34,263 nucleotides of DNA from a virus (IMGVR_UViG_3300032303_000918:1-34263), one strand, 5' to 3'. Positions 2,579 through 28,637 are shown, counted from the stretch's first letter. Made by a program: numbers and translations. Notes: generated by a model from the sequence alone, not told the origin.

Positions 2579-4450
2579 TTATTGTTCCTGTGGTGGGTTT
2601 GGCTCTGATACCTTGGATATAAAAGAAGATGCTGAACAGATTAGCTTTGTTGGAACATCCCTTGGTGGTACATGTATGTATATCTTTACAATCTCAACAT
2701 CTTGAAGTGGTATTTCACGCTTAAATGGCATAGACCTAGCATTCTCTGGTACAAATATCTCATCTTGGGTTGGGTATAAGCTCACACTATCTTGCATATA
2801 TAATTGAGAAGGAAGGTCACTTGGCTTTGTTACGCTCATATTGTTTTGAAGGTTATGCCAAATATGCCCATAAGGGTTTCCATCAAGTGAATTTCGTTTG
2901 AAAAGTGAGTCGTTGTTAAAATTAAAGGTTGCATCGTTTTGGCCTTCTCCTTCGTTAAGATACCCCCCTGTGTGATATACAAAATAGACCTTGGATGCTG
3001 GGTTATTTGCGCCCTCTGCCTGTTGCCATTCCTCCACAAACAATGTGCTTAATTTGTTATCCAATATCTTTTCGGTCAGAATGTGAGTATAGAGCTTTCT
3101 GGTTTTTGTGCTTGGTGGAAGAGTATGTGTAAAATTAAACGCAAACTTGTTCCTTATTCCATCAATCTTGCGTCCGTTATGACCAGCACTTGGTGTAATT
3201 ACTCTTGGTTGTGCGTCATCGCCATATTGAAGGCCAGATGGTGACCAAGCCTCTCTAGCAAAGGCAATTTTAGGCTCGTTATATGTATCAAGGGACTTGC
3301 AAGTTAATGCGCTGGCATCTGCTGTTTGACCAAAGCTTTGCCAATCCCCTGCCCTTATATCATCCTGTGTTGGCATTGTTGCCCCGCCAACAAGCGTAAA
3401 GAATCCATTGTTATTATGTATATACTTCGTGCTAGTCCATCCAGCCCTTCTAATTGTTGCCCCCTTATACAGATTAAGAAGGGCTTTCCCAAGTGGGCTT
3501 GGGTTTGGCAGGGTATCGCTAAAAGAAGTGTATAAGACTATGCCAGAAGGTTGTGCATCAAATCCACCTTCATAGGTTGTTGTTGCGTTAAGCGTTTCAC
3601 CAGAGTCCTTAACATCTATAACAAGAGCAAACTCACTATCAGAACATGTAACATCTGGTGGTAAATAGTATTGGTAACCAGCTATCGTCAGTGTTTCAGT
3701 AAAACATTGTGTCTTGTTAATTATCTTTGTTTCTGTCCAGCTTGCCAAGGTAGGCTTTGGAATTGTTGCACAAAATGGCCCTCTTGGCCCACCATCACCT
3801 CCATTATTAAGGTTAGCTGTTAAAAACTGCTCCTCTCTTGCTTCAGATAAAATTGGTGTGCCATCAGAGTTGTAACCCAAAACCTTTTGTGGAACATAAA
3901 ATACAGCTTCAAAAATTGCCCTATCGCAAGAATGATTACAACAATCATAATAAATACAAAATTCAGCGGTATTCCCCTCGCAAGCCTGTTGATTTGTCCA
4001 ATTTGTCCAATCTTGCGGGGTGCAATTTGGGCAAGCTGAACTAGAGCCACAACAAGGTGGCAAGCCACTAGGTGGGGCTGGAAGGGTTGGATTGTGTCTA
4101 GTATATGACGAAGCAACACCCCCATGACATCCAGTTGAATTAGAAGAACTACACCGAATGTTTACGCTACCAGTAAGACATAGTTTTTTCTCTATGCTTT
4201 TTGTCTCTTGTGTTGTTTTGCATTTAGTTATTGTTCTTGTGCTTGCTGGTACTTTTACCAATCCACCACCAGAGGTATAGCAATTAACTTTTGTTCGCCA
4301 AAAACTTACATATCTACCCTTGGGAGAAACAAGATTTGCAGAAGTATTAAAATGAATCCCGCTAGAATCGGTATAATAGCTCCAGCCTCTTGGTATTCTG
4401 CCCCCTGTTTTGTATGAATAAGGGGTTAAGCTGTTAAATACGCTTAACAT
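2579..4450 (-). CDS. Cys-rich tail/virion protein, function unknown
   Basis: 623-aa ORF in the tail module, translationally coupled to its neighbours, with 17 Cys between residues 57 and 269. Confidence 0.6.
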   Translation of the reverse strand: MLSVFNSLTPYSYKTGGRIPRGWSYYTDSSGIHFNTSANLVSPKGRYVSFWRTKVNCYTSGGGLVKVPASTRTITKCKTTQETKSIEKKLCLTGSVNIRCSSSNSTGCHGGVASSYTRHNPTLPAPPSGLPPCCGSSSACPNCTPQDWTNWTNQQACEGNTAEFCIYYDCCNHSCDRAIFEAVFYVPQKVLGYNSDGTPILSEAREEQFLTANLNNGGDGGPRGPFCATIPKPTLASWTETKIINKTQCFTETLTIAGYQYYLPPDVTCSDSEFALVIDVKDSGETLNATTTYEGGFDAQPSGIVLYTSFSDTLPNPSPLGKALLNLYKGATIRRAGWTSTKYIHNNNGFFTLVGGATMPTQDDIRAGDWQSFGQTADASALTCKSLDTYNEPKIAFAREAWSPSGLQYGDDAQPRVITPSAGHNGRKIDGIRNKFAFNFTHTLPPSTKTRKLYTHILTEKILDNKLSTLFVEEWQQAEGANNPASKVYFVYHTGGYLNEGEGQNDATFNFNNDSLFKRNSLDGNPYGHIWHNLQNNMSVTKPSDLPSQLYMQDSVSLYPTQDEIFVPENARSMPFKREIPLQDVEIVKIYIHVPPRDVPTKLICSASSFISKVSEPNPPQEQ

Positions 4451-9838: not shown

Positions 9839-10554
9839 TAGAATGGTGGAAACTGGAAAGTTCCGTTGGGGTGAAGTTCATCTGGGCATTCTTCGTTATC
9901 ATATTGCATAACGGCCTCTTGAACCTCCCAAATGCACCTAGTCCCACCAATCTCCTTCGCCAATGTTCTTAATGAAGGGGGCTGGATAATAAAGTGTGAA
10001 GATAAATCAGTTGGTATGCTTACACCAGCGACTTGGGTTATTTTGCATTTCTTGCCCACACTTCCAAGATTAATTGGGGCTTGGTCATAAATGTATCTAA
10101 CTCTAATCTGAAACCTAGCTAGGTCTTGGTATCTAACCCCATACATTGGGTTGGTAGTAGAGCCACCGCCACCGCTTAAGCCTGTGCTACCACTTTGGCT
10201 GTATGTTTGCGGAAATGTAATAAGATTTGTTGTTGCGTCCACCTCGCCCGAATACTTGTCTACTAGCTCTTTTACCTTCTTTGCTCTCTCAATTGGGTTC
10301 TTGGCAAAATCTCCGTCAATCTCTGTAACACTTTTTCTTATGCTAGTATCAATTGCATAAAACATGCAATTCAGTTTGTATTTGCCACAGCCCAAATCCT
10401 CCATCTGCTTACCGCCTAGAAACATTCCAGAGGGTGGGGATGGTCTTGCGCTAAATGCCTCTTCTGAACTATCACAAAAATACGGAATTGTCATTTGGGC
10501 AAGCCCATTTGCGTCTACGCTCATCTGCTTCCCTGTTATTTGTACTATTGGCAT
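9838..10554 (-). CDS. Putative distal tail/hub protein
   Basis: Immediately follows the tape measure gene; call rests on synteny. Confidence 0.45.
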   Translation of the reverse strand: MPIVQITGKQMSVDANGLAQMTIPYFCDSSEEAFSARPSPPSGMFLGGKQMEDLGCGKYKLNCMFYAIDTSIRKSVTEIDGDFAKNPIERAKKVKELVDKYSGEVDATTNLITFPQTYSQSGSTGLSGGGGSTTNPMYGVRYQDLARFQIRVRYIYDQAPINLGSVGKKCKITQVAGVSIPTDLSSHFIIQPPSLRTLAKEIGGTRCIWEVQEAVMQYDNEECPDELHPNGTFQFPPF

Positions 10555-16643: not shown

Positions 16644-18032
16644 TTAACTTGCTGGGATTATTTGCGGTTGGGGTTGGCTTTTATTTGTCTGAATCTGTGA
16701 GACTTCTATTCCGTATTCCCTTGCAATGTCTGCTATGTATTTTGCTTCTATTGCCTTCTGTCTGATAATTTCTTGCCACTCGTCTCCACGCTCCCCCGCT
16801 AGGTCTGCCAAGGAGCGCATGCCCACTAGGTAGTCTTCTCGTTCTGCGGTTGCATCTCTACCTACATCAATGGAAATCTTCTTTGGTGTTTGATATACTG
16901 CCTTGTACCACTCTGGATTCTCTGGCAAGTCTCCACGCTTAATAGCTTTTGCTGTACTCCATCTATAAACTCTTTTGATAAGTCTGTTAATTAGAACATC
17001 TTGAATTTCATCAAACCTTCTTTGAGCCTGTCCAATTACAAATCTTTGGCTTGGGCCAGATAAATCAGCCTTCCAAACAAGTTCGTATGGGATGCCAAGC
17101 GCAAGAGCAATAGAGCGTATATACTGCTCTAGGTGTTGGTCTAATGCAGAATTTGGCCTACTGGATTGGATGGTTTGAAGGTCTTCACCAATTCCAAGGT
17201 TTGCAATTGCTCCACCTCCAAAAATTGTTTCAGCATTAACACCATTCTCAATCTGTTTTGTTTGTGACAAGAAACCACCGCCAGAATCTTTTCTTTTTAC
17301 TACTAGACCGATAACAGACGCAAGCTTTGATGCTTGCATTTCATAAGTCAGAAGTTCATCTCTGTCAAGAATTTGCGTCATGGCACAACCAAGTCTGGAG
17401 ATTGCCCTATATTGGTGCGGTCTATCGTACTCCGCTACAACAATTACATCTTCTGCATTTACTTCTTCATATTTGTCATTGGCAAGTTTGAAGTAATAAG
17501 AAAGCGGTTTTCCAGATGCGTTAACCTTGACACCATCTGTAATCCTTTTGTCTTTTGAAAGTTCTTTTGGTGTTTCGCATTTGTGTGACTCAACAAGCTC
17601 AAGCTGTGGATATCCGCTTTTTGTTGAGTTAAGGACTAGAAAGCATTCCCCATCTCTCAACATTGTTATTGTAACAATTCTCTGCATTTCATTGAAATCA
17701 TGTACTCCAGCAATGTCACAAATTCCAGAGAATGAATCAAAGAACATTTCCGCTTTTTCATTCCATGAGTTATCGGCTGTCCTTGCCTGTACCTTAATTC
17801 CAGAGCCGATTGAGTTTCTTACCATTGTGTCAACTGCTCCACGGACTAGGGGGTTTGATAGGTACATTTTCCTAGCCAAGCCAAGAGTTCTTGTCCTGTC
17901 GTATGGGTTGATGTCGTTTTTATGGTCATCTACTTGCGAGAAAACCCAAGCTCTATGTCTTGGGTTGTGTTGCGTCCATGGGGTCATCTGTGAAAACCCA
18001 AACTTGTTTTTAAGTGACGCAATTAGGTTCAT
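16644..18032 (-). CDS. Portal protein, lambda gpB family
   Basis: ARKMY.SNP.VRGAV...IGSGI, RDGECF, DGVKVN..GKP..Y, R..QYRAIS and ALGIPYE motifs. Confidence 0.92.
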   Translation of the reverse strand: MNLIASLKNKFGFSQMTPWTQHNPRHRAWVFSQVDDHKNDINPYDRTRTLGLARKMYLSNPLVRGAVDTMVRNSIGSGIKVQARTADNSWNEKAEMFFDSFSGICDIAGVHDFNEMQRIVTITMLRDGECFLVLNSTKSGYPQLELVESHKCETPKELSKDKRITDGVKVNASGKPLSYYFKLANDKYEEVNAEDVIVVAEYDRPHQYRAISRLGCAMTQILDRDELLTYEMQASKLASVIGLVVKRKDSGGGFLSQTKQIENGVNAETIFGGGAIANLGIGEDLQTIQSSRPNSALDQHLEQYIRSIALALGIPYELVWKADLSGPSQRFVIGQAQRRFDEIQDVLINRLIKRVYRWSTAKAIKRGDLPENPEWYKAVYQTPKKISIDVGRDATAEREDYLVGMRSLADLAGERGDEWQEIIRQKAIEAKYIADIAREYGIEVSQIQTNKSQPQPQIIPAS

Positions 18033-18343
18033 AGAACGCCAGAGAAAAGGCCATAGGTTAGTTGGCTACTATTGCCAAGAATTGCGCCCTCAATTTCTTC
18101 TTGCTCCAAGTCTTTTGTTTCACGAATTACATTAACCGCCATCTGCACAATATCCAAAGGGTCAAGACCAGAGGTGGTTGAGTATGTAAAAGAAACTCCG
18201 TTGACCGCACTAGATACAAGAGTTTTTCCGTTATTTTGGACAAGCTGAAACTGCTTTAATACAACTGCGTCTAGGGCATTTAGGAAATTGGTTTTAAGCC
18301 TTCCAGATTGCACCCAAAACGCATAGGCAAAAGCTTGGTTCAC
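18029..18343 (-). CDS. Putative head completion protein (gpW-like position)
   Basis: Small ORF directly upstream of portal with an SSAVNGVSFTY hairpin; GTG start. Confidence 0.5.
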   Translation of the reverse strand: MNQAFAYAFWVQSGRLKTNFLNALDAVVLKQFQLVQNNGKTLVSSAVNGVSFTYSTTSGLDPLDIVQMAVNVIRETKDLEQEEIEGAILGNSSQLTYGLFSGVL

Positions 18344-18358
18344 AAGCCTGTGTTGGTG

Positions 18359-18514
18359 TCAAAACCCCTGCTCTGGGGTTTTCTTAAGCCTTGGTCTACC
18401 ACCAAGCTTTCCGTTTAGCCTTGCCTGTTCTGCCTGTAACTGCGTTCTCTTGCGTTGCCGTAATAGCTTGCCAATGTTTAGAACCTCACCGCATTTAGGA
18501 CATTTTCTTTTCAT
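18359..18514 (-). CDS. Small basic CxxC / NGKLGGRP protein, candidate DNA-binding regulator (51 aa)
   Basis: MKRKCPKCGE...QARLNGKLGGRPRLKK, preceded by a promoter containing the island palindrome. Confidence 0.6.
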   Translation of the reverse strand: MKRKCPKCGEVLNIGKLLRQRKRTQLQAEQARLNGKLGGRPRLKKTPEQGF

Positions 18515-18547
18515 AGATTGTTGTACCCAACTATTGGGTTGTGTCAA
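18515..18547 (-). promoter_or_regulatory. Island promoter P4 with operator-like palindrome
   Basis: TTGACA (18542-18547), then AACCCAATAGTTGGGTA (18524-18540). The -10 is weak (TACAAC at 16-nt spacing). Confidence 0.6.
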
Positions 18548-18911
18548 ATAAGTTTATTGTCTCCTTGTTTTTTAACATCTCTGAACGGCTGGGGCATGAC
18601 TTCTTGCAATCAATGCAAGACCTCCTTGAGCCTCTAAAGCAATCCTCTTCAAACTGAAGGTTCTGGTACTTCACAAAATGTTGATTTCTTCCCCTAGTTG
18701 GTTTCACTTTACAGATATTGGATTGCCATATTTTAGACCAATAAGGCTTGCCAGCTATAACCCTTGAGCCAATTGAAAGACCATTTGCTATTGTGCCAAA
18801 CCTTTCAGAATTGTTGGGGTTTAATATTGGGCAGTACCTCATGGAACTTACTGCTATTTTTGTCTTTTGCATGGCTGATAAATATAAACCAGACCAAGCA
18901 TTTTTTGGCAA
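18531..18911 (-). CDS. Hypothetical protein (island)
   Basis: Co-oriented ORF filling the gap; start uncertain. Confidence 0.4.
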   Translation of the reverse strand: MPKNAWSGLYLSAMQKTKIAVSSMRYCPILNPNNSERFGTIANGLSIGSRVIAGKPYWSKIWQSNICKVKPTRGRNQHFVKYQNLQFEEDCFRGSRRSCIDCKKSCPSRSEMLKNKETINLFDTTQ

Positions 18912-18930
18912 ATTGATTTTTGTGTTCGTT

Positions 18931-19143
18931 TTATTCTTTCTCTATTTGGTCAACAATTAGCTTTGCGCCCCTGTCTCTCTCAATAGGCCAAGCAAGTTTG
19001 GTGTCTCCGTTGGGCATTTCTATTTTCAGACCATAAAGCTTTTCATTTTCAAGCTCTACATTGTCCCAGACAACTCCAACAATCCTTCCACCTACTAGGC
19101 TTTTGTACTGGTCAAGCTCTGCTGATTCTTCTTTGGTGTTCAT
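18931..19143 (-). CDS. Hypothetical protein (island)
   Basis: 70-aa acidic ORF with an ACCA-ATG start context. Confidence 0.6.
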   Translation of the reverse strand: MNTKEESAELDQYKSLVGGRIVGVVWDNVELENEKLYGLKIEMPNGDTKLAWPIERDRGAKLIVDQIEKE

Positions 19144-19195
19144 TGGTTTGCTTTAGCCGTTGTCAAAATATCGGAAAGACCCTCGCTTGGTTTGG

Positions 19196-19384
19196 CTATT
19201 TGCCCATGAAGTCCCAATTGGGTTCAGCATTCCCAAGCATTGCCTCTAAAGCAGAGATATAGCCAAGCGTAAAACCAAGTTTTTCACTCTCCCAGCAAGC
19301 CCCCATTTGGTTTGCATTTTCCGTAAGCCTTTCAATCGTTGCCTTTCGTTCAGCAATCTTCTTTTTTATTTGTTGTTTTGTCAT
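19196..19384 (-). CDS. Hypothetical protein, paralogue of 21088-21327
   Basis: Shares MTK..IKK.IA and C..SE.LGFTLG with 21088-21327; AACCAAGAGAG upstream. Confidence 0.7.
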   Translation of the reverse strand: MTKQQIKKKIAERKATIERLTENANQMGACWESEKLGFTLGYISALEAMLGNAEPNWDFMGK

Positions 19385-19402
19385 TGTGCTTTCCTCTCTT
19401 GG

Positions 19403-19921
19403 TTAGTTGCCCAGATGTTTTTCTAGCAACCTATCCAAATAGGTTTTCCGCTTTTGCTTGATGCATCTCTTGTATGTCTCTGGGTGTGCCTCTTGCAGAT
19501 AATCTAGTTCGTTTTTGGTTGTCTCTAGTTCGCCCTTGGGGGTATTCAATTCGTATTGTGCATGGTGGGTTAGCTCATGAACTAGGGCGCACATCATCTG
19601 CACTTCGTTGCCTACCTTCATTCCTCTTGTTGCCTTTGGCGCAATGTTGAGGCTTTTCTTGTCGTACAGATAGAGCCTAGCCCTAGTGCTAATGCATGTG
19701 TTAGGGGCTAGGTACTTCCCGCACTCAACTTCATTTCTGAAGTACCTAGACCGCTTGTAAGTACCAGAGAAAATAAACTCTGTTGTGCTGAAGTCTACCG
19801 AAGCATACCTTTTTTGCATCCAGCTAATTGCCTCCTCAATCATTGCTGGGATTTTCTCAACAAGCCCTCTGGGTACTGAATTGCGAATTGTTACTACTCG
19901 TTTTGTTTCTGTGTTTGTCAT
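19403..19921 (-). CDS. Putative zinc metallopeptidase (HExxH)
   Basis: ALVHELTHHAQY plus a downstream Glu (GELE); AACCAAGAAAG upstream. Confidence 0.6.
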   Translation of the reverse strand: MTNTETKRVVTIRNSVPRGLVEKIPAMIEEAISWMQKRYASVDFSTTEFIFSGTYKRSRYFRNEVECGKYLAPNTCISTRARLYLYDKKSLNIAPKATRGMKVGNEVQMMCALVHELTHHAQYELNTPKGELETTKNELDYLQEAHPETYKRCIKQKRKTYLDRLLEKHLGN

Positions 19922-19946
19922 GTTGGTTGGTCTTTCTTGGTTGGTG

Positions 19947-20270
19947 TTAGCTGTTGTTGGCTATGTGGGCAAATATTGCCTTCACTCCATCTTCAGTCAT
20001 AAAAATCAATCTGCTTTCGTCTTGCAATGGGTCATAGATAAGCCCCTTCTTGCAGAGGCTACCAATCACTCCAGAGGCTTGATGCTTTCCACCACAGATT
20101 TTATGAGCATCTACCAAGTCACATTGGCTGTGGTTATCGGACAACTGGTTTTCAATATTGTCGTAATTCAAGCATGCGCTCAAAACATTGGCCTCTAAAG
20201 AGGTTAGTGAAACATTGGAATCTTGAGCCGTTCCAATTTCGGCTTTGGTCTGTGCTGGGTTCGTTGTCAT
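19947..20270 (-). CDS. Putative winged-helix protein (island)
   Basis: LTSLEANVL...ASGVIGSLCKKGLI...MTEDG is a wHTH-like pattern. Leaderless start MTTNP 6 nt after the -10. Confidence 0.55.
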   Translation of the reverse strand: MTTNPAQTKAEIGTAQDSNVSLTSLEANVLSACLNYDNIENQLSDNHSQCDLVDAHKICGGKHQASGVIGSLCKKGLIYDPLQDESRLIFMTEDGVKAIFAHIANNS

Positions 20271-20305
20271 GTTTAGAAGATAACCCAACTGCTGGGTTTT
20301 GTCAA
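20271..20305 (-). promoter_or_regulatory. Island promoter P3 (sigma70-type, leaderless) with operator-like palindrome
   Basis: TTGACA-17nt-TATCTT-6nt-ATG, with AACCCAGCAGTTGGGTT at 20282-20298 and an upstream A tract. Confidence 0.85.
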
Positions 20306-20362
20306 TAGGGCAAAGCAACTTTTTTTTAGGGTTATTCACAGGGGGTTTCTTTAGGGTTGCGG

Positions 20363-21049
20363 TTAGCTGTAAATTCCCTCAAGCCTTTTGGCGTAGTCCT
20401 CAAAGGCAATATTGTATTTCTTGCTTCCCATTCTTCCGTGATTCTTGGCTAATATTTCGCAGACAATCTGGCTGGCTCTTTCTGATATTGTTTGACCAGA
20501 AATAAGAGAGGCAACAATGTTTTCCGTGAAAGTATTGCCATAAGCTGTAATCTGCCCAAGAGAATCTTGCTTGTAAAAAAACCGCTGGTTGCCTTGGGTA
20601 ACAACGCCAAAATAGCCTGTACAATCTGGTTGGCTTGTCTGCCAAGTTTTACGGCATCCAACAAGTGCCTCAACCACCCAGAACCATTTATTTATTCTAT
20701 CATTCTGAACAACAACCAACGCCTTTGTGGCTTCTTGTTCTTTAAGAATTTTCTCCTCACGGACGGCATTGTTTTTTTCTATTTGTTCAGAGGTTAGCCC
20801 ACTCTTAACGGCCTCCCTCATGCTTGAGTCACCAATCTTTTCTGCACAATCTTGACCAACAAAATGCTTCTCACCATTCGGGGTCATAATTACAACATGA
20901 TGCAGAATGCCCATACCGCAGTTGGCGCAAGTGCCAGTTCCTTTAACTGCGCCTTTCCATGCATTGTTGTATGCGTCTGGGTTGGCCTCTGCCAAAGAAG
21001 CTGGTGGCATGGAGAAGTAACCGATGATGCGAGCGTTGCTTAATTTCAT
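20363..21049 (-). CDS. Hypothetical Zn-binding protein (island)
   Basis: GTCANCG..I.H...HFVGQDCA motif; leaderless start. Confidence 0.65.
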   Translation of the reverse strand: MKLSNARIIGYFSMPPASLAEANPDAYNNAWKGAVKGTGTCANCGMGILHHVVIMTPNGEKHFVGQDCAEKIGDSSMREAVKSGLTSEQIEKNNAVREEKILKEQEATKALVVVQNDRINKWFWVVEALVGCRKTWQTSQPDCTGYFGVVTQGNQRFFYKQDSLGQITAYGNTFTENIVASLISGQTISERASQIVCEILAKNHGRMGSKKYNIAFEDYAKRLEGIYS

Positions 21050-21084
21050 ATTGGCAATTTAACCCCACAGCGGGGTTATGTCAA
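21050..21084 (-). promoter_or_regulatory. Island promoter P2 (sigma70-type, leaderless) with operator-like palindrome
   Basis: TTGACA-17nt-TAAATT-6nt-ATG, with AACCCCGCTGTGGGGTT at 21061-21077. Confidence 0.85.
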
Positions 21085-21087
21085 CGG

Positions 21088-21327
21088 CTATTTCAATCTT
21101 TTTTTAGGGCTGTTAACAAGCCTTCTTTGTAGCTGTTCAGCCTCACCCAAGACCGCATTGAGGGAAGTTCCATCAAGAACCCTGTTGAATGCGTGTAATA
21201 ACCCAAGAGTAAAGCCCAGCGTTTCACTTGTATGGCATCTCTTGCTTTTCTCTGCCTCGCTTTTGTGAAGAGGGAGGTAATACTTTTCTGTATATGCGAT
21301 GGCTTTTTTAATTTCTGTTTTAGTCAT
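21088..21327 (-). CDS. Hypothetical protein, paralogue of 19196-19384
   Basis: Start reassigned to MTKTEIKK, 10 nt after AACCAAGAAAG. Confidence 0.7.
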   Translation of the reverse strand: MTKTEIKKAIAYTEKYYLPLHKSEAEKSKRCHTSETLGFTLGLLHAFNRVLDGTSLNAVLGEAEQLQRRLVNSPKKRLK

Positions 21328-21355
21328 TTGATTTGGTCTTTCTTGGTTTGTGTTT

Positions 21356-21739
21356 TCAATGCCCCTCAAAGATTGCGTTAAACTCCTTGCATGGTTTGCC
21401 GTCATCCAGCTTGTCTACTGCTTCAAGCGTAGCCAATGCCCACTTGAACCTTCTGTAATCATCTGTTTTTATGTCTTTTTTTAGTGCCTTGATAATCTTG
21501 GCAAGCGGTACTAGGGATGGTTCAGCCCCATACATGTCTTCAGTAATTGTCTCGTTGCCATCATACCAGTACACCTTATGGCATGCATCTTTCTTGAAAG
21601 ACTCTTCAGCAAGCTTGGCAATATTGGACTTTCCGCAATCGGAAAGGTCAATAGTTATGTCATTAAAGAAGCTTGTTTTGCGTTTGATTGTACTGGCGTT
21701 GCCAATTCTTCCCACTCGTAGTTTTAGTTCGTATCCCAT
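21356..21739 (-). CDS. Hypothetical protein (island)
   Basis: 127-aa ORF preceded by AACCAAGAAAGGA. Confidence 0.7.
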   Translation of the reverse strand: MGYELKLRVGRIGNASTIKRKTSFFNDITIDLSDCGKSNIAKLAEESFKKDACHKVYWYDGNETITEDMYGAEPSLVPLAKIIKALKKDIKTDDYRRFKWALATLEAVDKLDDGKPCKEFNAIFEGH

Positions 21740-21765
21740 ATTATGTTTCCTTTCTTGGTTGTTGG

Positions 21766-22089
21766 TTATTTTCCGTTTGCAATATCGTCTAGGTATTTCT
21801 GGTCTGCGTCTTTTCTGCTTGGCCTATTGCGCTCAACTTCTTCAGCAAGTTCCAGCTTTTGCGCTTCCGTTAATTCTTTTGATGCGGTCTTGGAGCTTGT
21901 AACTACCTTTGCCTTGATTTTGCCAAAGTGTACTGGCGCATCCCCGCCAACATAATCAGTAATGTAGGCATGGCCTTCCTTTATGTCTTTGGCAATGCTC
22001 TTGGCTTCCTTAAGGCTCTTGGCTTTTACCCTTAAGCAATAATGCACACTTTCCTCTACCCTAATTTCAAATGTCTCTTGGTTTTCCAT
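21766..22089 (-). CDS. Hypothetical protein, DpnD/PcfM-like N-terminus
   Basis: FEIRVEE.V.Y...VKAKS.KEA...A pattern; AACCAAGAAAG upstream. Confidence 0.55.
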   Translation of the reverse strand: MENQETFEIRVEESVHYCLRVKAKSLKEAKSIAKDIKEGHAYITDYVGGDAPVHFGKIKAKVVTSSKTASKELTEAQKLELAEEVERNRPSRKDADQKYLDDIANGK

Positions 22090-22113
22090 GGTCTTTGGTT
22101 CTTTCTTGGTTGG

Positions 22114-22476
22114 TTATTTTGCCAGCTTCTTTGAAGCTCTTTTTTTGGCATCTGCTAAATACTTTTCAATCTTTTCATTCCGTTCCTGTTCCGTCTCACA
22201 CCAATTTTCCTGTTGGGACGCTCCAAACTTTTTGCCGTTCCTAGTTGCTTGCGCCCTGTATGCAATATGTGTCCCAATATGCTTGGGGTCACAGATACAG
22301 CCCCAAGAATTTTCTGGGTCATCAATCTGGGTGCGGGTCACAATAAAGGTTGTGATAATTGCACCAATCTCTCTGCCCCTCTCATCTTGGATGCCAAAGT
22401 TGTGAGTGGTCTTCACAATGTTGGTATCTGTTTCTTCATATTTTACCCAGCCGTCTTTTCTTGTGTTGTTTGTCAT
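22114..22476 (-). CDS. Hypothetical protein (first gene of island)
   Basis: Leaderless start MTNNTR 6 nt after the -10 of P1. Confidence 0.7.
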   Translation of the reverse strand: MTNNTRKDGWVKYEETDTNIVKTTHNFGIQDERGREIGAIITTFIVTRTQIDDPENSWGCICDPKHIGTHIAYRAQATRNGKKFGASQQENWCETEQERNEKIEKYLADAKKRASKKLAK

Positions 22477-22511
22477 GGGTGTAAAGTAACCCAACTATCG
22501 GGTTATGTCAA
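22477..22511 (-). promoter_or_regulatory. Island promoter P1 (sigma70-type, leaderless) with operator-like palindrome
   Basis: TTGACA-17nt-TACTTT-6nt-ATG, with AACCCGATAGTTGGGTT at 22488-22504 and two upstream A7 tracts. Confidence 0.85.
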
Positions 22512-22551
22512 TAGGCAAAATGCACTTTTTTTAACTTTTTTTGACCTCCTG

Positions 22552-22564
22552 TAAGTTCTTGATA
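22552..22564 (-). promoter_or_regulatory. IHF-consensus site upstream of P1
   Basis: TATCAAGAACTTA matches WATCAA-N4-TTR. Confidence 0.45.
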
Positions 22565-22606
22565 TTAGGCTATTTGCCTAGTGTGCTTGGGTCTTTATAG
22601 CCATTT

Positions 22607-22894
22607 TTATCTGCTCAACATGAAATTATTTTTGTATGCCCACGCTGGATTTTGATGAATTTTTGCATGGCATTCCCAGCATGTTCCCAAGAAATATTCC
22701 GCTTCTACAAGCCTCTCTCCAAATCTTCCCCGCTTATGGTGTATCTGGTCTGCATGTTTTATTTTGCAGACTCCGCACAACGGATTTTCTTTTAGAAATT
22801 CTTCCCTTGTCTTTTTGTATTGTCTTAATTGCCCTGCTCTTTTTTTGCTAACCCTCCTAATTGGTTTCGTATTCCTTAATCTGGTATTCAACAT
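22607..22894 (-). CDS. HNH endonuclease
   Basis: CGVC...QIHH..GR...TCWECHAKIH, adjacent to terminase. Start placed at MLNTR. Confidence 0.8.
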   Translation of the reverse strand: MLNTRLRNTKPIRRVSKKRAGQLRQYKKTREEFLKENPLCGVCKIKHADQIHHKRGRFGERLVEAEYFLGTCWECHAKIHQNPAWAYKNNFMLSR

Positions 22895-24641
22895 CTGGTT
22901 CTTTTTTATTGTCGCTGGTGTCAGAAACAACAACCTCTGCCTTGATGAGTTTGCCAAATGCGGAAAAGGCAATAAGCATGGTTTCACAATCCAACAAATG
23001 GTCTGGCCTCCTCGCCACTCTTATCCATTCATAAGAGTCCTTCCCTGTTCTCTTGTTAATCCTGTGCATTTTTTTATGGGACATTAAATGCTCTTTGTAG
23101 TCATGGCTGGTATCGCTAGGTATTTCCCAACCCTGTCCAGAACCCCTGCGAAACCATGCCAGTAGGTCTTGGCAACTAGGCGAGCTAAACAAAATCATCT
23201 TTGCCCCTGCGTCCGTAAGCTGAAAGGAGGAGTGAACGGCTTTTATTCTCCTTCCACCATCCTCAATCAGATAATACTCCCGCCCCTCACCCTTCATGGA
23301 AGTCCAGCCGTACTTGGCGCACACTCTCTGGGTGTCTTGCGTTTCGTATCCGCAATCCATCGCCACAAATCTAAAATCCACATTGAGGCTTTTTAGCTTC
23401 TCTGCCATGTCCTCAATAGTTCTTACCCTTCCTTCATCAATGAGTCTGCTTGCTCCCTCCGCTGAATATGCCCTTACCACATACCAGAGTTCATCAATCT
23501 GCCTATCAATGGCACAGACCCTAATTGCCTCCTTGTCCCAAGCCTGTTTCTTTAAGAAGTTGCCTTCATTTATTATGGTTGAGTCTTCCTCGCTAAATTG
23601 GTCTTCCCATGGAAGCGCAAGCCATCCGTTAACGAAGTTTTGCAACCCCTGTAAAAAGTGTTTCTCCGTAAGAAACTTTGTGGCGCAATCTGAAAATGTA
23701 ATGGATGGGGAGTAAATGGAATTAAGATGGAATGACCTTCTGGCGGGTTCTGCGTTTTCCGCATTGGTGGCAACCCATTCCCCAGCCCTCAACATCTTTG
23801 TCTTGTGTCCATCGTTTATTATCCCCTTGCATGAAATACATTGGTAGCGGGCTGAAGCTTTGACGGCTTTGTAGTCCCATTTGCCGTCTACCTTCTTTGC
23901 CTTTTCGTCCCATTTCACTTGGGTAAAAACTAGCTCTTGCTTGTGGTTGCAATGGGGGCAAGGCACAAAATACTTTTCCTGTGTCCCAGCAAGGTATTGT
24001 TGCCAGACATCTCCATTGAGAAGTGTTGGGGTACTGGTAAGGACATGCTTTCTTCTTGGGAAAGCCTTGGTTCTTTCTAGGGCTAGTGAAAATGCAGAAG
24101 CTTCCTTTGCTGTGGCTGGTGCAAACTTGTCTAGCTCATCACAAAGAACTACCTCTACTGGCCTAGAAGCAACGGACGCTGGTGAGTTACTGCCTATGAG
24201 ATTAAATACGCAGTTCTTAAAATGCATCTCAAGCAGTTTGAACTTGTCTGGGTTCTCTGGCATTTCCACAGCCATAGGCTTACAAGTGCGGAACATTGGC
24301 TGTAATCGGGTTTCACTAAAACTTCTTGCCAGACTTTCCGTTGGCATAACCCAAAGCGTAGGGGAAGGATGCTTTGTAATTCTCCAGCACAGCCATGCCA
24401 TTAGGGTTGTTGTCTTTGCCGTCTGTGAACCCCAAGCCAATACTATTGTCTGGGTTTTCCAATCCTCAAGGGCATCCAGAACCCCCTTAACATAGGGGGT
24501 GTAGTTTGTCCTGTATGCTCCCTTAAGTGGAGTAGACCCAGAAAGCTCTAGGTTCTTTTCGCACCATTCCCAAGCTCGCATCTTGTCTTCTTTTGCCCAT
24601 ATCCCTTTAGAGATAAGCTCAAGCTCATCCCTTTCACTCAT
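22857..24641 (-). CDS. Terminase large subunit, lambda GpA family
   Basis: TPY, GSQTAKTT (Walker A), VVLCDELDK (Walker B), STPT, VPCPHC, FHLNSIYSP, N.WLALPW and DH.LDCE motifs. Confidence 0.95.
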   Translation of the reverse strand: MSERDELELISKGIWAKEDKMRAWEWCEKNLELSGSTPLKGAYRTNYTPYVKGVLDALEDWKTQTIVLAWGSQTAKTTTLMAWLCWRITKHPSPTLWVMPTESLARSFSETRLQPMFRTCKPMAVEMPENPDKFKLLEMHFKNCVFNLIGSNSPASVASRPVEVVLCDELDKFAPATAKEASAFSLALERTKAFPRRKHVLTSTPTLLNGDVWQQYLAGTQEKYFVPCPHCNHKQELVFTQVKWDEKAKKVDGKWDYKAVKASARYQCISCKGIINDGHKTKMLRAGEWVATNAENAEPARRSFHLNSIYSPSITFSDCATKFLTEKHFLQGLQNFVNGWLALPWEDQFSEEDSTIINEGNFLKKQAWDKEAIRVCAIDRQIDELWYVVRAYSAEGASRLIDEGRVRTIEDMAEKLKSLNVDFRFVAMDCGYETQDTQRVCAKYGWTSMKGEGREYYLIEDGGRRIKAVHSSFQLTDAGAKMILFSSPSCQDLLAWFRRGSGQGWEIPSDTSHDYKEHLMSHKKMHRINKRTGKDSYEWIRVARRPDHLLDCETMLIAFSAFGKLIKAEVVVSDTSDNKKEPDVEYQIKEYETN

Positions 24642-27056: not shown

Positions 27057-27497
27057 TTAGTTTCTTGGATTTGATTGCGCCCATTTAGACCAAGCTAGGC
27101 AAAGTTCTCTAATGTCATTTTCTGTTGCGTTTTCATGGTTTTTTATATCAATAGTTCCAACTGGCATTATTTTAACCCATCGCTCAAAACGAACAACCCT
27201 CCCAGCCCCATCCCAATCAATTCTAACAACTACAAAATCAGCATTAAGAACCAGCTTCTCTAGGGTTTGCCTTTGTCCGTTAGACATCATTGCCCCAGCA
27301 TATTTGTTCTCAAACAGGAGGAATTTGCCATTTACCTCAACCAATCCGTCTATGTCTGTGGGTAATATGCTTTCCCTAATGAATGCGCCCTTAAGCCAAC
27401 CCCAGCTTTTAAGCCTAATTTCATGCAGATACCTAGAAATGTCCTTTATGCCAGCGCACTCATAAAGCTCATCTGCCATTGTCTGAACATTAATCAT
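27057..27497 (-). CDS. PD-(D/E)XK nuclease-like protein
   Basis: PTDIDG...FLLFENK....MSNGQR..LE.L. Confidence 0.6.
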   Translation of the reverse strand: MINVQTMADELYECAGIKDISRYLHEIRLKSWGWLKGAFIRESILPTDIDGLVEVNGKFLLFENKYAGAMMSNGQRQTLEKLVLNADFVVVRIDWDGAGRVVRFERWVKIMPVGTIDIKNHENATENDIRELCLAWSKWAQSNPRN

Positions 27498-27898
27498 AGG
27501 GCAAATGACACTCTTTTGTGTGTCTTGGGCTTATTGTATTTAGAAACCCAACCACACCTTCTGGCGTATTTAACAGAATCGTAGGATATGTTAAACTTCT
27601 TGGCTATTTGACGAATTGTTAAGCCCTCTTCATAGAGCTTTTTGAACACATCCCAGCGTTCTTTTATTACCTCAACTTCCCTAGACTTCAGCCACAGCTT
27701 TGATACATCCCCATTAATTAGGGGCATTTCATGCGTTTTAAGTGAGAATGTTAGCTTTGACTCGTTAGCTACCTTCTTGGCTTCATTAAGCTCTACAAAT
27801 GCCTTTGTAAGCAATTCTTGATGGCTTTTAAGGACTAGCTCAATGGAATTAAGCCTTTCCCCAAAGTATTTATTAATTGTGTCTTGCCTAGACTCCAT
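27494..27898 (-). CDS. HTH DNA-binding protein
   Basis: LYEEGLTIRQIAKKFNISYDSVKYA. Confidence 0.7.
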   Translation of the reverse strand: MESRQDTINKYFGERLNSIELVLKSHQELLTKAFVELNEAKKVANESKLTFSLKTHEMPLINGDVSKLWLKSREVEVIKERWDVFKKLYEEGLTIRQIAKKFNISYDSVKYARRCGWVSKYNKPKTHKRVSFAL

Positions 27899-28637
27899 TG
27901 GTTACGCTTTCTGGAGTTGGAAAACCAGCCTCTTTCCAAGCTTCATAGCTCTTAAAGCCCATCATTTTGTATAATGGCGGTGAGTAGTTAGGAGAAACTT
28001 GCTCTTTCTTTTTAGGCTTTGCCTCTGTTGCTTTGGCTATGTTCCTTCTTTGACAATTCCTCGCCACAGCCTTCCAATCAGCAATTTTTGTCTTACCACC
28101 AACTAACCAGCCAACGGACTCATAATAGTCATAAGCAGACCTAGCTAGGTCTTTGTCCCATTTAAGTTCTAACGCATAATCAAACCAATCCTTCTGTGTA
28201 GGTATATTATTATTAACTTTAACTATAACATCTAACTCTAACTCTCCCCGTTTCTTTTGCGTTTCTTGAGCGTTTCTAAAGCGTTTCAGCCTCTCCCAGC
28301 CCTGTTTCCGCACCTCACCTTCCCTTAAAAGCCTTCTTGAGTACATAACCCCATTCTCTTCACTAAATACGCCAAGTAGGGAAAGCTCCTTTAGAAGCTC
28401 TTGGGTCTTGTCTATTGGTATTCCAGCTATTCTTGATATTTCTTCAGCCCCAATGGGCTTTGCGCCAAGGCACAGATACCCAAAGCGGTCTGCCTTTGCC
28501 ATTAGGCACAACATATCAATCCAAAGACCCCTAGCCTCTAGGGTGCAACACCTTAATCTTTCATCGCTCAACCAATCAGACGGAAAGAACCTAATGTAGA
28601 AAAGCTTGGCTTTTGAGGCTTCCACTATGCCCCCCAA
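27888..28637 (-). CDS. Replication initiator / replisome organiser (YdaU/DUF1376-like N-terminus)
   Basis: FFPSDWLSD..LR.C...ARGLWIDMLCLM, YSRRL, and C-terminal YDYYESVGW......DWKA.ARN. Confidence 0.75.
   Translation of the reverse strand: MGGIVEASKAKLFYIRFFPSDWLSDERLRCCTLEARGLWIDMLCLMAKADRFGYLCLGAKPIGAEEISRIAGIPIDKTQELLKELSLLGVFSEENGVMYSRRLLREGEVRKQGWERLKRFRNAQETQKKRGELELDVIVKVNNNIPTQKDWFDYALELKWDKDLARSAYDYYESVGWLVGGKTKIADWKAVARNCQRRNIAKATEAKPKKKEQVSPNYSPPLYKMMGFKSYEAWKEAGFPTPESVTNGV

What the first reader, a model, noticed from the sequence alone, without database searches (positions are those of the whole stretch)
18359..22564. Operator-controlled gene island inside the head module, ending in a tiny CxxC/NGKLGGRP protein: candidate anti-defence regulon with a new repressor type
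Seen: about 11 small genes interrupt the normally contiguous terminase-gpW-portal block. Three promoters share the geometry TTGACA-17-TAnnnT-6-ATG (22477-22511, 21050-21084, 20271-20305). Each has the palindrome AACCC-N7-GGGTT filling the spacer (22488-22504, 21061-21077, 20282-20298). A fourth near-copy (18524-18540) precedes the last gene, a 51-aa basic protein with CPKC and ARLNGKLGGRP. Known: anti-CRISPR operons use strong promoters shut off by Aca repressors encoded at the operon end, which bind inverted repeats in the promoter, and some lie among head genes. Inference: this is an early host-takeover or anti-defence regulon, repressed and autoregulated by a non-HTH mini-repressor.
Basis: partly seen in the sequence, partly recalled or inferred. 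Interest (0 to 1): 0.85.

Follow-up and report, generated by a model that had tools for sequence, protein, structure and literature searches.

The report
Portable helix-GGRP mini-repressor and operator
Four promoters in a gene-swapping island of this phage carry one palindrome that travels with a 51-residue protein's short helix-GGRP motif across unrelated phages and bacterial toxin-antitoxin operons, so the protein is likely an undescribed kind of tiny repressor that shuts the island off, while an anti-defence role for the island remains untested.

Summary
In detail: three TTGACA-17-TAnnnT-6-ATG promoters and a weaker fourth carry AACCC-N7-GGGT(T), and the island splits a terminase-portal block that is contiguous in relatives. 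The 51-aa protein belongs to a large unnamed family (1,075 clusters) defined by a ~25-residue helix-NGKxGGRP module. That module and the palindrome travel together in three unrelated settings. (1) Phage minis: an operator-promoter lies upstream in 19 of 26 loci, downstream in 1 of 24. (2) DUF4160-DUF2442 toxin-antitoxin operons: operator present in 9 of 11 antitoxins with the module, 1 of 100 without. (3) DUF1376-type replication proteins: 70 half-sites just after the module against 9 before. Searches by promoter DNA alone also recover the protein. The wHTH rival is absent from a sibling island that keeps the operators. Siblings shuffle the cargo at repeated promoters and leaders. Binding and repression are inferred, not measured. 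Anti-defence support is thin: one related operon starts with ardC, no Acr was found, and the island's genes have no named family. Verdict: an Aca-like switch built on a likely new DNA-reading module that weakly resembles the Gin/Hin invertase arm.

The parts
22477..22511 (-). Promoter P1: TTGACA-17-TACTTT-6-ATG with operator 22488-22504; first promoter of the island, predicted leaderless
   Evidence: second-best site in the genome for a matrix trained only on toxin-antitoxin operators (21.3)
21050..21084 (-). Promoter P2: TTGACA-17-TAAATT-6-ATG with operator 21061-21077 (arms AACCCC/GGGGTT; the most divergent copy)
   Evidence: not among the top 40 sites of the TA-trained matrix; absent from sibling L001
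20271..20305 (-). Promoter P3: TTGACA-17-TATCTT-6-ATG with operator 20282-20298
   Evidence: best site in the genome for the TA-trained matrix (21.7); drives a different first gene in L001, L350 and L369
18515..18547 (-). P4: TTGACA plus operator 18524-18540 directly before the 51-aa gene; weak -10 box
   Evidence: identical in five sibling loci; matrix score 15.9, rank 5
18359..18514 (-). 51-aa CxxC + helix-NGKLGGRP protein, predicted repressor; last gene of the island and only copy of the module in the genome
   Evidence: co-occurrence
22114..22476 (-). Cargo gene, 120 aa, no family; replaced in sibling L001
21766..22089 (-). Cargo gene, 107 aa, no family; kept in siblings
21356..21739 (-). 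Cargo gene, 127 aa, no family; 67-89% identical in siblings
21088..21327 (-). Cargo gene, 79 aa, weakly similar to the 62-aa gene (42-44% over 64 columns); absent from L001
20363..21049 (-). Cargo gene, 228 aa, with Cys/His motif; unnamed viral look-alikes only; absent from L001 and L350
19947..20270 (-).
   Evidence: phrog_25342 of unknown function; moved in L001, missing from L350 and between P3 and P4 in L369; skipped by a contig joint 19942-20258
19403..19921 (-). Cargo gene, 172 aa, predicted zincin-like metalloprotease (HELTHH)
   Evidence: 57 homologues; H115, E116, H119 invariant in 53 rows; model pLDDT 94; only weak fold matches, best Wss1 and SPRTN, E 0.11-0.2
19196..19384 (-). Cargo gene, 62 aa, no family
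18931..19143 (-). Cargo gene, 70 aa, no family
18531..18911 (-). Doubtful ORF (113-126 aa) ending inside the P4 operator
   Evidence: split by a frameshift in L369
19919..22119 (-). Four copies of an intergenic leader with core ACCAAGAAAG (19919-19950, 21325-21356, 21737-21767, 22095-22119); likely cassette junctions
   Evidence: repeat families D3-D5; 4 of the 5 genome copies are in the island; sibling breakpoints fall at 19931-19949, 21352, 21750, 22083-22115; loose contig ends cluster at 19904-19944

Best explanation
The island is a run of swappable small genes behind four host-type promoters that share one palindrome, and its last gene encodes a 51-residue protein that likely binds this palindrome with its helix-NGKxGGRP module and is predicted to shut all four promoters, its own included. 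Steps: (shown) the palindrome fills the -35/-10 spacer; the module and the palindrome co-occur across unrelated phages, toxin-antitoxin operons and replication genes; the cargo is exchanged at promoter and leader repeats. (Inferred) host sigma70 RNA polymerase fires the promoters on DNA entry and makes leaderless transcripts; the mini-protein accumulates, two copies each lay a basic helix and GGRP arm on one WAACCYAA half-site, probably in the minor groove as the Gin/Hin arm does, and block polymerase; the N-terminal part (CxxC here, DUF2442 or a plain helix elsewhere) would serve to pair the subunits and set the spacing. The result would be a burst-then-off pulse of accessory proteins that likely act on the host, some possibly against its defences.
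For: Forward, operator defined from the window alone: 10 of 46 de-duplicated viral genes with a standalone or terminal module have it 60-210 nt upstream, against 31 of 1,817 background windows. Forward, matrix trained only on 38 TA operators: operator with a -35-like box within 4 kb upstream in 19 of 26 loci, downstream in 1 of 24, and in 1 of 11 and 1 of 13 replication-gene controls. Reverse, DNA pattern from the window: 9 of 23 non-sibling metagenome lineages encode the module on the fetched DNA; 8 of 10 where the site runs into a TA start of a -10 box, 1 of 13 otherwise (lineages grouped by eye). Reverse in viral contigs: 9 of 14 lineages not used to make the pattern. Independent DUF2442 sample: operator in 9 of 11 with the tail, 1 of 100 without; inside the one subgroup that holds all 11 tails, 0 of 6 tail-less members have it. 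The TA-trained matrix ranks P3, P1 and P4 first, second and fifth in this genome. Replication proteins: 70 half-sites in 200 nt after the module, 9 before, 10 in shuffles, n = 23. A DUF4160/DUF2442 pair represses its own promoter in reporter assays (PMC8198452, passages; I did not check whether that antitoxin has the tail). Model: helix 25-36 followed by an extended arm; nearest non-zinc natural PDB sequence is Gin 122-149 (E 0.095-0.19), and the Gin core is AAACC-GA-GGTTT, read by the arm in the minor groove (PMC3985619, passages and Table 1).
Against: No binding, repression, start-site or timing data. The loose palindrome in a sigma70 spacer is not diagnostic: only 1 of 9 non-self lineages found with it encodes the module within 6 kb. 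Some module genes show no operator-promoter nearby: L002, L003, L036, L040, the microvirus PQ006318.1, 6 of 26, 2 of 11. All DUF2442 tails may share one origin, so that contrast is not 111 independent events. P2 scores poorly and P4 lacks a good -10 box. The Gin similarity is below significance, and the half-site spacing differs (2 bp against 8-11 between AACC and GGTT). Another HTH protein (27494-27898) was not excluded by experiment.
Confidence: 0.82

Rival explanations
1. The palindrome is read by another protein: the 107-aa 'wHTH', the HTH protein at 27494-27898, or a host regulator. The mini-protein would be a passenger.
For: Both genes exist; similar palindromic spacers occur in phages with no module nearby (8 of 9 lineages).
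Against: The 107-aa gene is missing from the L350 island, which keeps three operator-promoters, and is skipped in another contig; island genes have no homologue in the other fetched loci (509 searched). A host factor would not explain why the site follows the tail within one antitoxin family or sits inside replication genes.
Confidence: 0.07
2. The protein binds the palindrome but activates, or only tunes, the promoters (as MerR-type proteins do from the spacer), instead of repressing them.
For: The site lies wholly in the spacer; P4 and many TA promoters have weak -35 or -10 boxes. MerR precedent is recalled.
Against: P1-P3 have a consensus -35 and optimal 17-bp spacing, which need no activator; the tail sits on antitoxins, which as a class repress their operon (PMC8198452, passages); the protein has no room for an effector or polymerase-contact domain.
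Confidence: 0.06
3. The repeats are PeSL-like recombination cassettes only; the palindrome is kept by copying of the promoter or as a DNA hairpin, with no protein reader.
For: Siblings swap cargo at these repeats, as PeSLs do in T4-type phages (PMC4122927, abstract). P1 and P3 are 71% alike over 84 nt.
Against: It does not explain single-copy operators that follow the module in unrelated phages and bacteria. Arms are kept while the centre varies in sequence and length. Shuffling and repression are compatible, and I accept the shuffling.
Confidence: 0.04
4. On the cargo, separately: the island is specifically an anti-CRISPR or anti-restriction regulon, which would make the protein a true new Aca.
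For: Layout matches acr-aca operons, including one regulator for several operons (10.64898/2026.07.27.740549, abstract, introduction, section 21). In MW202801.1 the operator-promoter drives ardC, two small genes and a module fusion as last gene. A methyltransferase sits in the L206 operon. The island has a predicted zincin protease.
Against: No Acr or other named anti-defence hit in the island. 1 of 35 scanned loci has a known anti-defence gene. The same operator also controls an integrase operon (L106), module-only units and TA pairs. No dedicated Acr library was available.
Confidence: 0.35

Closest known systems
Anti-CRISPR-associated (Aca) repressors, Aca1-13 (HTH) and Aca14 (RHH); 10.64898/2026.07.27.740549
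   Same: Small regulator encoded with strong early-type promoters, inverted repeat in the promoter, one regulator predicted to control several neighbouring operons of small unknown genes.
   Different: No HTH or RHH; no acr gene found with it; the module is also used by antitoxins and replication proteins. The main text of that preprint has no 'GGRP', 'AT-hook' or 'AACCC'; its supplements were closed.
DhiTA-type toxin-antitoxin pairs, DUF4160 (PF13711) + DUF2442 (PF10387); PMC8198452
   Same: A subgroup of DUF2442 antitoxins ends in the same helix-NGKxGGRP module and has the same palindrome before the -10 box, including plasmids of Synechococcus elongatus PCC 7942 and Cupriavidus necator H16.
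   Different: The phage protein has no DUF2442 domain and no toxin partner; TA operators mostly have 7-10 bp between the 5-bp arms, phage ones mostly 6-8. The passages I read name no operator or DNA-binding motif.
Helix E / GGRP arm of the Gin and Hin serine invertases (PDB 4m6f, 3uj3; PMC3985619)
   Same: Basic helix ending in a GGRP arm; target half-site AAACC/GGTTT, like WAACC here.
   Different: Sequence match is below significance (E 0.095-0.19); no catalytic or HTH domain; half-sites are 2 bp apart in gix and 8-11 bp apart here. Homology or convergence is undecided.
DUF1376 (PF07120)-type phage replication proteins
   Same: Carry the module right after DUF1376 (for L045; two annotated Vibrio phages) and have clusters of the same half-site in their own gene.
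   Different: Module is internal; sites are many and intragenic. That they are origin iterons is inferred from the lambda O layout (recalled).
PeSL cassettes of T4-type phages (PMC4122927 abstract; PMC2839356 listing only)
   Same: Repeated early-promoter elements that mark the exchange points of small unknown genes.
   Different: PeSLs are promoter-terminator composites; here no terminator-like site was found at the repeats, the promoter holds an operator, and a second leader repeat also marks junctions.

Membership tests
Aca | Co-encoded with a known acr gene | tested here: inconclusive
   No Acr hit in Pfam, PHROGs or NCBIfam for island or related cargo; no dedicated Acr library available
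Aca | HTH or RHH DNA-binding domain | tested here: not met
   No HTH or RHH family among the Pfam matches shown for 60 family members (25 of 37 families listed) or for the protein itself; the model has a Cys knuckle, two helices and an extended arm
Aca | Inverted repeat in the operon promoter that tracks the regulator | tested here: met
Aca | Binds the repeat and represses | not testable with these tools
   needs EMSA and reporter assays
DUF2442 antitoxin (DhiA type) | PF10387 domain and adjacent DUF4160 toxin | tested here: not met
   No such domain in the 51-aa protein or the island
DUF2442 antitoxin (DhiA type) | Shared C-terminal module and operator (subgroup only) | tested here: met
Serine invertase (Gin/Hin) | Catalytic resolvase domain and C-terminal HTH | tested here: not met
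   51 aa, no Pfam match
Serine invertase (Gin/Hin) | Homologous helix E/GGRP arm | tested here: inconclusive
   E 0.19 for the family profile, 0.095 for P0012; fold searches gave nothing usable
Zinc ribbon or Rad50-type zinc hook | Four zinc ligands, within one chain or across a dimer | tested here: inconclusive
   One CxxC only in this protein; sub-threshold matches to several zinc families; 107 of 150 top relatives have a Cys pair, the rest none
PeSL | Repeat marks gene-exchange points | tested here: met
PeSL | Terminator stem-loop joined to the promoter | tested here: not met
   No minus-strand terminator-like site in 17800-23200

The most novel reading that the evidence does not exclude
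A 25-residue helix-GGRP arm, the piece that guides Gin/Hin invertases to AAACC, works on its own as a portable sequence-specific DNA reader. Phages use it as a free mini-repressor that marks unexplored anti-defence islands, and because host DUF4160-DUF2442 toxin-antitoxin operons use the same operator, the phage protein could silence those host operons (or the host antitoxin could silence the phage island).
Probability: 0.2. Interest if true: 0.92.

Novelty: new variant of a known kind. Interest (0 to 1): 0.8.

Why it matters
It defines, from sequence alone, a protein motif and its DNA site for a family of more than 1,000 clusters that has no Pfam, PHROG or NCBIfam model. If binding is confirmed, it is one of the smallest sequence-specific repressors known, neither HTH nor RHH, and it would explain three separate unknowns at once: how a subgroup of DUF2442 antitoxins autoregulates, what DUF1376-type replication proteins recognise, and how these phage islands are switched off. 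Like Aca genes, it offers a guilt-by-association marker for finding host-interaction and anti-defence genes in uncultured phages. It is directly testable: the protein is 51 aa, the promoters are sigma70-type, and tail-bearing operons exist in S. elongatus PCC 7942 and C. necator H16.

Tried and rejected
Dimer plus zinc prediction gave no answer (score 0.08); it counts neither way. Fold searches with the mini-protein model found nothing usable. Word-index homologue search found only 2 near-identical proteins; the Atlas gave unnamed viral clusters for the 51-aa and 228-aa proteins. The wide structural search for the 172-aa protein could not be run, so its fold rests on the motif and weak Foldseek rows. 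The strict window operator (up to 1 mismatch) is too narrow for TA variants: 2 of 11 with tail against 8 of 100 without; the matrix replaced it. One search recovered only 72 of the loci by HMM, so, with all coordinates, is the count I use. In one search the centre of the pattern came from forward hits, so three lineages (the large MKCPxC clade, L164/178/188, L165/182) are circular and not counted. Three freshwater RNA runs hold pieces of related phages as contigs, including island pieces, but cannot show timing, strand or level. No clear link between spacer length and N-terminal module was seen by eye; not tested formally. Matrix hits at 3485, 10134 and 19427 lack a -35 box and are taken as chance or unexplained. 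No integrase or CI-like hit among the window ORFs scanned; host not determined. Searches of earlier scan findings gave nothing on this family. Literature searches that found no description of the motif or operator: (0 papers with phage + repressor + KGGRP); the library lacks most subscription journals and bioRxiv supplements, so absence from print is not proven.


Full report
OBSERVATION. The window is a 34,263-nt phage record with direct terminal repeats; all long genes lie on the minus strand. Between a gpA-type terminase with an overlapping HNH gene and a lambda-type portal lie eleven small ORFs. In four portal relatives the terminase and portal matches are 538-574 nt apart, against about 5,000 here, so the island is an insertion. 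AACCC-N7-GGGTT is exact three times and one base off once, at the coordinates given; 300 shuffles never gave more than one exact copy. The pattern TTGACA-17-TAnnnT occurs only three times in the genome, each time with the palindrome in the spacer and ATG 6 nt after the -10 box, which is the geometry of a leaderless transcript (inference). The fourth site, before the 51-aa gene, has the -35 box and the palindrome but a poor -10 box.

THE PROTEIN FAMILY. The 51-aa protein has no Pfam, PHROG, NCBIfam or PADLOC match. A five-sequence profile finds 1,075 clusters at E up to 0.001 among 1.84 billion representatives. Of the 150 best, 107 have a Cys pair and the rest start with a plain helix. The constant part is about 25 residues, G-x3-S-x2-K-x2-A-[AS]-R-x-N-G-K-x-G-G-R-P (the last ten positions were partly fixed by the search patterns). 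A codon-pattern scan of viral contigs returned 120 loci (of about 600 estimated): 57 replication-type proteins with the module inside, 53 with it at or near the C-terminus, 10 others. The same scan in bacterial genomes returned 120 loci (of about 1,200), mostly with the module as a C-terminal tail; 11 of 16 such proteins tested are DUF2442, and 8 of 10 upstream partners tested are DUF4160. AlphaFold2 gives a Cys knuckle, helices 14-17 and 25-36 and an extended arm (pLDDT 80).

MODULE AND PALINDROME TRAVEL TOGETHER. Forward test with the operator defined from the window alone: 10 of 46 de-duplicated viral genes (from 59 loci) have it 60-210 nt upstream, against 31 of 1,817 background windows, and in those ten it follows a TTGAC-like box in register. 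In 41 de-duplicated DUF4160-DUF2442 operons with the tail, 23 have it with up to one mismatch (background 26 of 1,872) and 36 with up to two (295 of 1,872), typically just before the -10 box and start codon. I trained a half-site matrix (WAACCYAA) on 38 of these TA operators only and applied it to data it had not seen. First, DUF2442 genes drawn by family search from four bacterial groups (116 loci, 5 dropped for short flanks): 9 of 11 with the tail have an operator, 1 of 100 without; among those with a toxin motif upstream, 9 of 9 against 1 of 45. A tree of 46 of these (all 11 tails, 35 chosen tail-less) puts every tail in one 17-row group of moderate support, so the tail may have one origin; but the 6 tail-less members of that group all lack the operator. 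Second, viral genes with at least 2.5 kb upstream: 20 of 26 have a site within 4 kb, 19 with a -35-like box, against 1 of 24 downstream and 1 of 11 or 1 of 13 around replication genes. Third, this genome: P3, P1 and P4 rank 1, 2 and 5; P2 is not in the top 40. Two named plasmids, of S. elongatus PCC 7942 and C. necator H16, also fit.

Reverse tests. A window-derived 18-base pattern in metagenomes gave 41 loci: 9 siblings of this phage and 32 others in 23 lineages (grouped by eye). Nine lineages encode the module on the fetched DNA: 8 of the 10 in which the site runs into the TA of a -10 box, 1 of the other 13. A viral scan with a centre taken from forward hits gave 62 loci; leaving out three circular lineages, 9 of 14 encode the module within 2.2 kb (one as an insertion variant), three negatives lack a -10 box and two end within about 500 nt. 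The usual layout is operator-promoter, zero to seven small genes, module gene last, in several cases beside terminase genes. Against: the loose palindrome alone is weak evidence, since only 1 of 9 non-self lineages found with it has the module within 6 kb; and L002, L003, L036, L040 and a microvirus carry the module with no operator-promoter found.

REPLICATION PROTEINS. In 23 de-duplicated replication-type genes the DNA right after the module holds 70 half-sites in 200 nt, against 9 before it and 10 in shuffles; ACC-N3-9-GGTT occurs after it in 18 and before it in 5. One was confirmed as DUF1376. By analogy with lambda O (recalled) these would be origin repeats read by the same module. This is a third context, unrelated to promoters.

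HOW IT MAY BIND. The best natural non-zinc PDB sequence match is Gin invertase 122-149, the end of helix E and the GGRP arm, at E 0.095-0.19, which is below significance. PMC3985619 (passages and Table 1) gives the Gin core as AAACC-GA-GGTTT and states that the arm from helix E selects sequence through the minor groove. The shared motif and shared half-site make minor-groove reading the most likely mode; homology is not shown. Pairing through the single CxxC is a guess.

THE wHTH RIVAL. The 107-aa gene sits behind P1 in L001, is missing from the L350 island that keeps three operator-promoters, and is missing between P3 and P4 in L369; a contig from a freshwater run joins 19942 to 20258 and skips it. 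No island gene has a homologue outside siblings among 509 loci. The 51-aa gene and P4 are present in every sibling locus that reaches that end.

THE CARGO. Siblings at 91-98% identity in the flanks carry different genes in different orders, with breakpoints at the promoters and at a repeated leader with core ACCAAGAAAG, as PeSL cassettes do in T4-type phages (PMC4122927, abstract). No island gene has a named family. The 172-aa gene has an invariant HExxH motif and a confident model whose best, weak, matches are Wss1 and SPRTN. Among 35 loci whose cargo I scanned, named hits were ArdC (MW202801.1: operator-promoter, ardC, two small genes, module fusion), a methyltransferase, cell-wall hydrolases and an integrase; no Acr. 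So host interaction is plausible and anti-defence is possible but not shown.

COMPARISON AND NOVELTY. It works like an acr-aca switch (10.64898/2026.07.27.740549: abstract, introduction, section 21 and term search read; supplements closed) but fails Aca membership on fold and has no known acr partner. A DUF4160/DUF2442 pair is known to autorepress (PMC8198452, passages), with no operator or binding motif named in what I read. Ten literature searches found no description of this module-operator pair, within the limits of the library. The regulatory logic is known; the DNA-reading module, its site and its reuse in three systems appear undescribed.

VERDICT. Observation confirmed. Mini-repressor reading 0.82, on comparative evidence only. 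Anti-defence role of the cargo about 0.35. New variant of a known kind; interest 0.8.

Noticed in passing
L225-L344, L386-L509, L510:596-1168, L511:479-1171: A subgroup of DUF4160-DUF2442 toxin-antitoxin operons across Pseudomonadota, Cyanobacteriota and Acidobacteriota has a conserved operator WAACCYAA-N-TTRGGTTW before a leaderless start; 106 plasmid records match the tail region.
   Followed up: yes
L045-L160 (replication-type loci): The low-complexity linker of DUF1376-type proteins (KPSGF, KPTGF, TQSVNLANP) is the translation of repeated AACCC/GGGTT sites, probably origin repeats.
   Followed up: partly
L224:3068-5090 (MW202801.1): Operator-promoter, ardC, two small genes, then a module fusion as last gene.
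   Followed up: partly
L223:1930-2229 (PQ006318.1): A microvirus encodes a CxxC + NGKKGGRP protein between capsid-region and pilot genes, with no operator found in the genome.
   Followed up: partly
L162-L222 (e.g. L217:7001-7251 and 10268): A large clade of ~30-kb phages has the mini gene on its own operator-promoter before a RecT/Bet gene and a second operator-promoter about 3.2 kb downstream before small genes.
   Followed up: partly
L106:5982-8025: Operator-promoter drives an operon with an integrase that ends in an RHH-looking protein (by eye) carrying the module, so two DNA-binding parts in one chain.
   Followed up: no
L380, L382, L229, L060, L374: A subfamily has a full CxxH-x-CxxC zinc site before the module instead of a single CxxC.
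   Followed up: no
L010-L025: Several unrelated phages have TTGACA-N-AACCC-N7-GGGT-TATAAT promoters with no module within 6 kb; their reader, if any, is unknown.
   Followed up: no
window 22607-22987: HNH endonuclease gene overlapping the terminase end, between terminase and island.
   Followed up: no
window 3485-3506, 10134-10153, 19427-19446: Operator-like palindromes without a -35 box; the last lies about 40 nt before the 62-aa gene.
   Followed up: partly
window 27888-28637: A replication-like gene (unknown PHROGs 28809, 15768) that lacks the module, so this phage's own replication gene is not of the module-bearing type.
   Followed up: no
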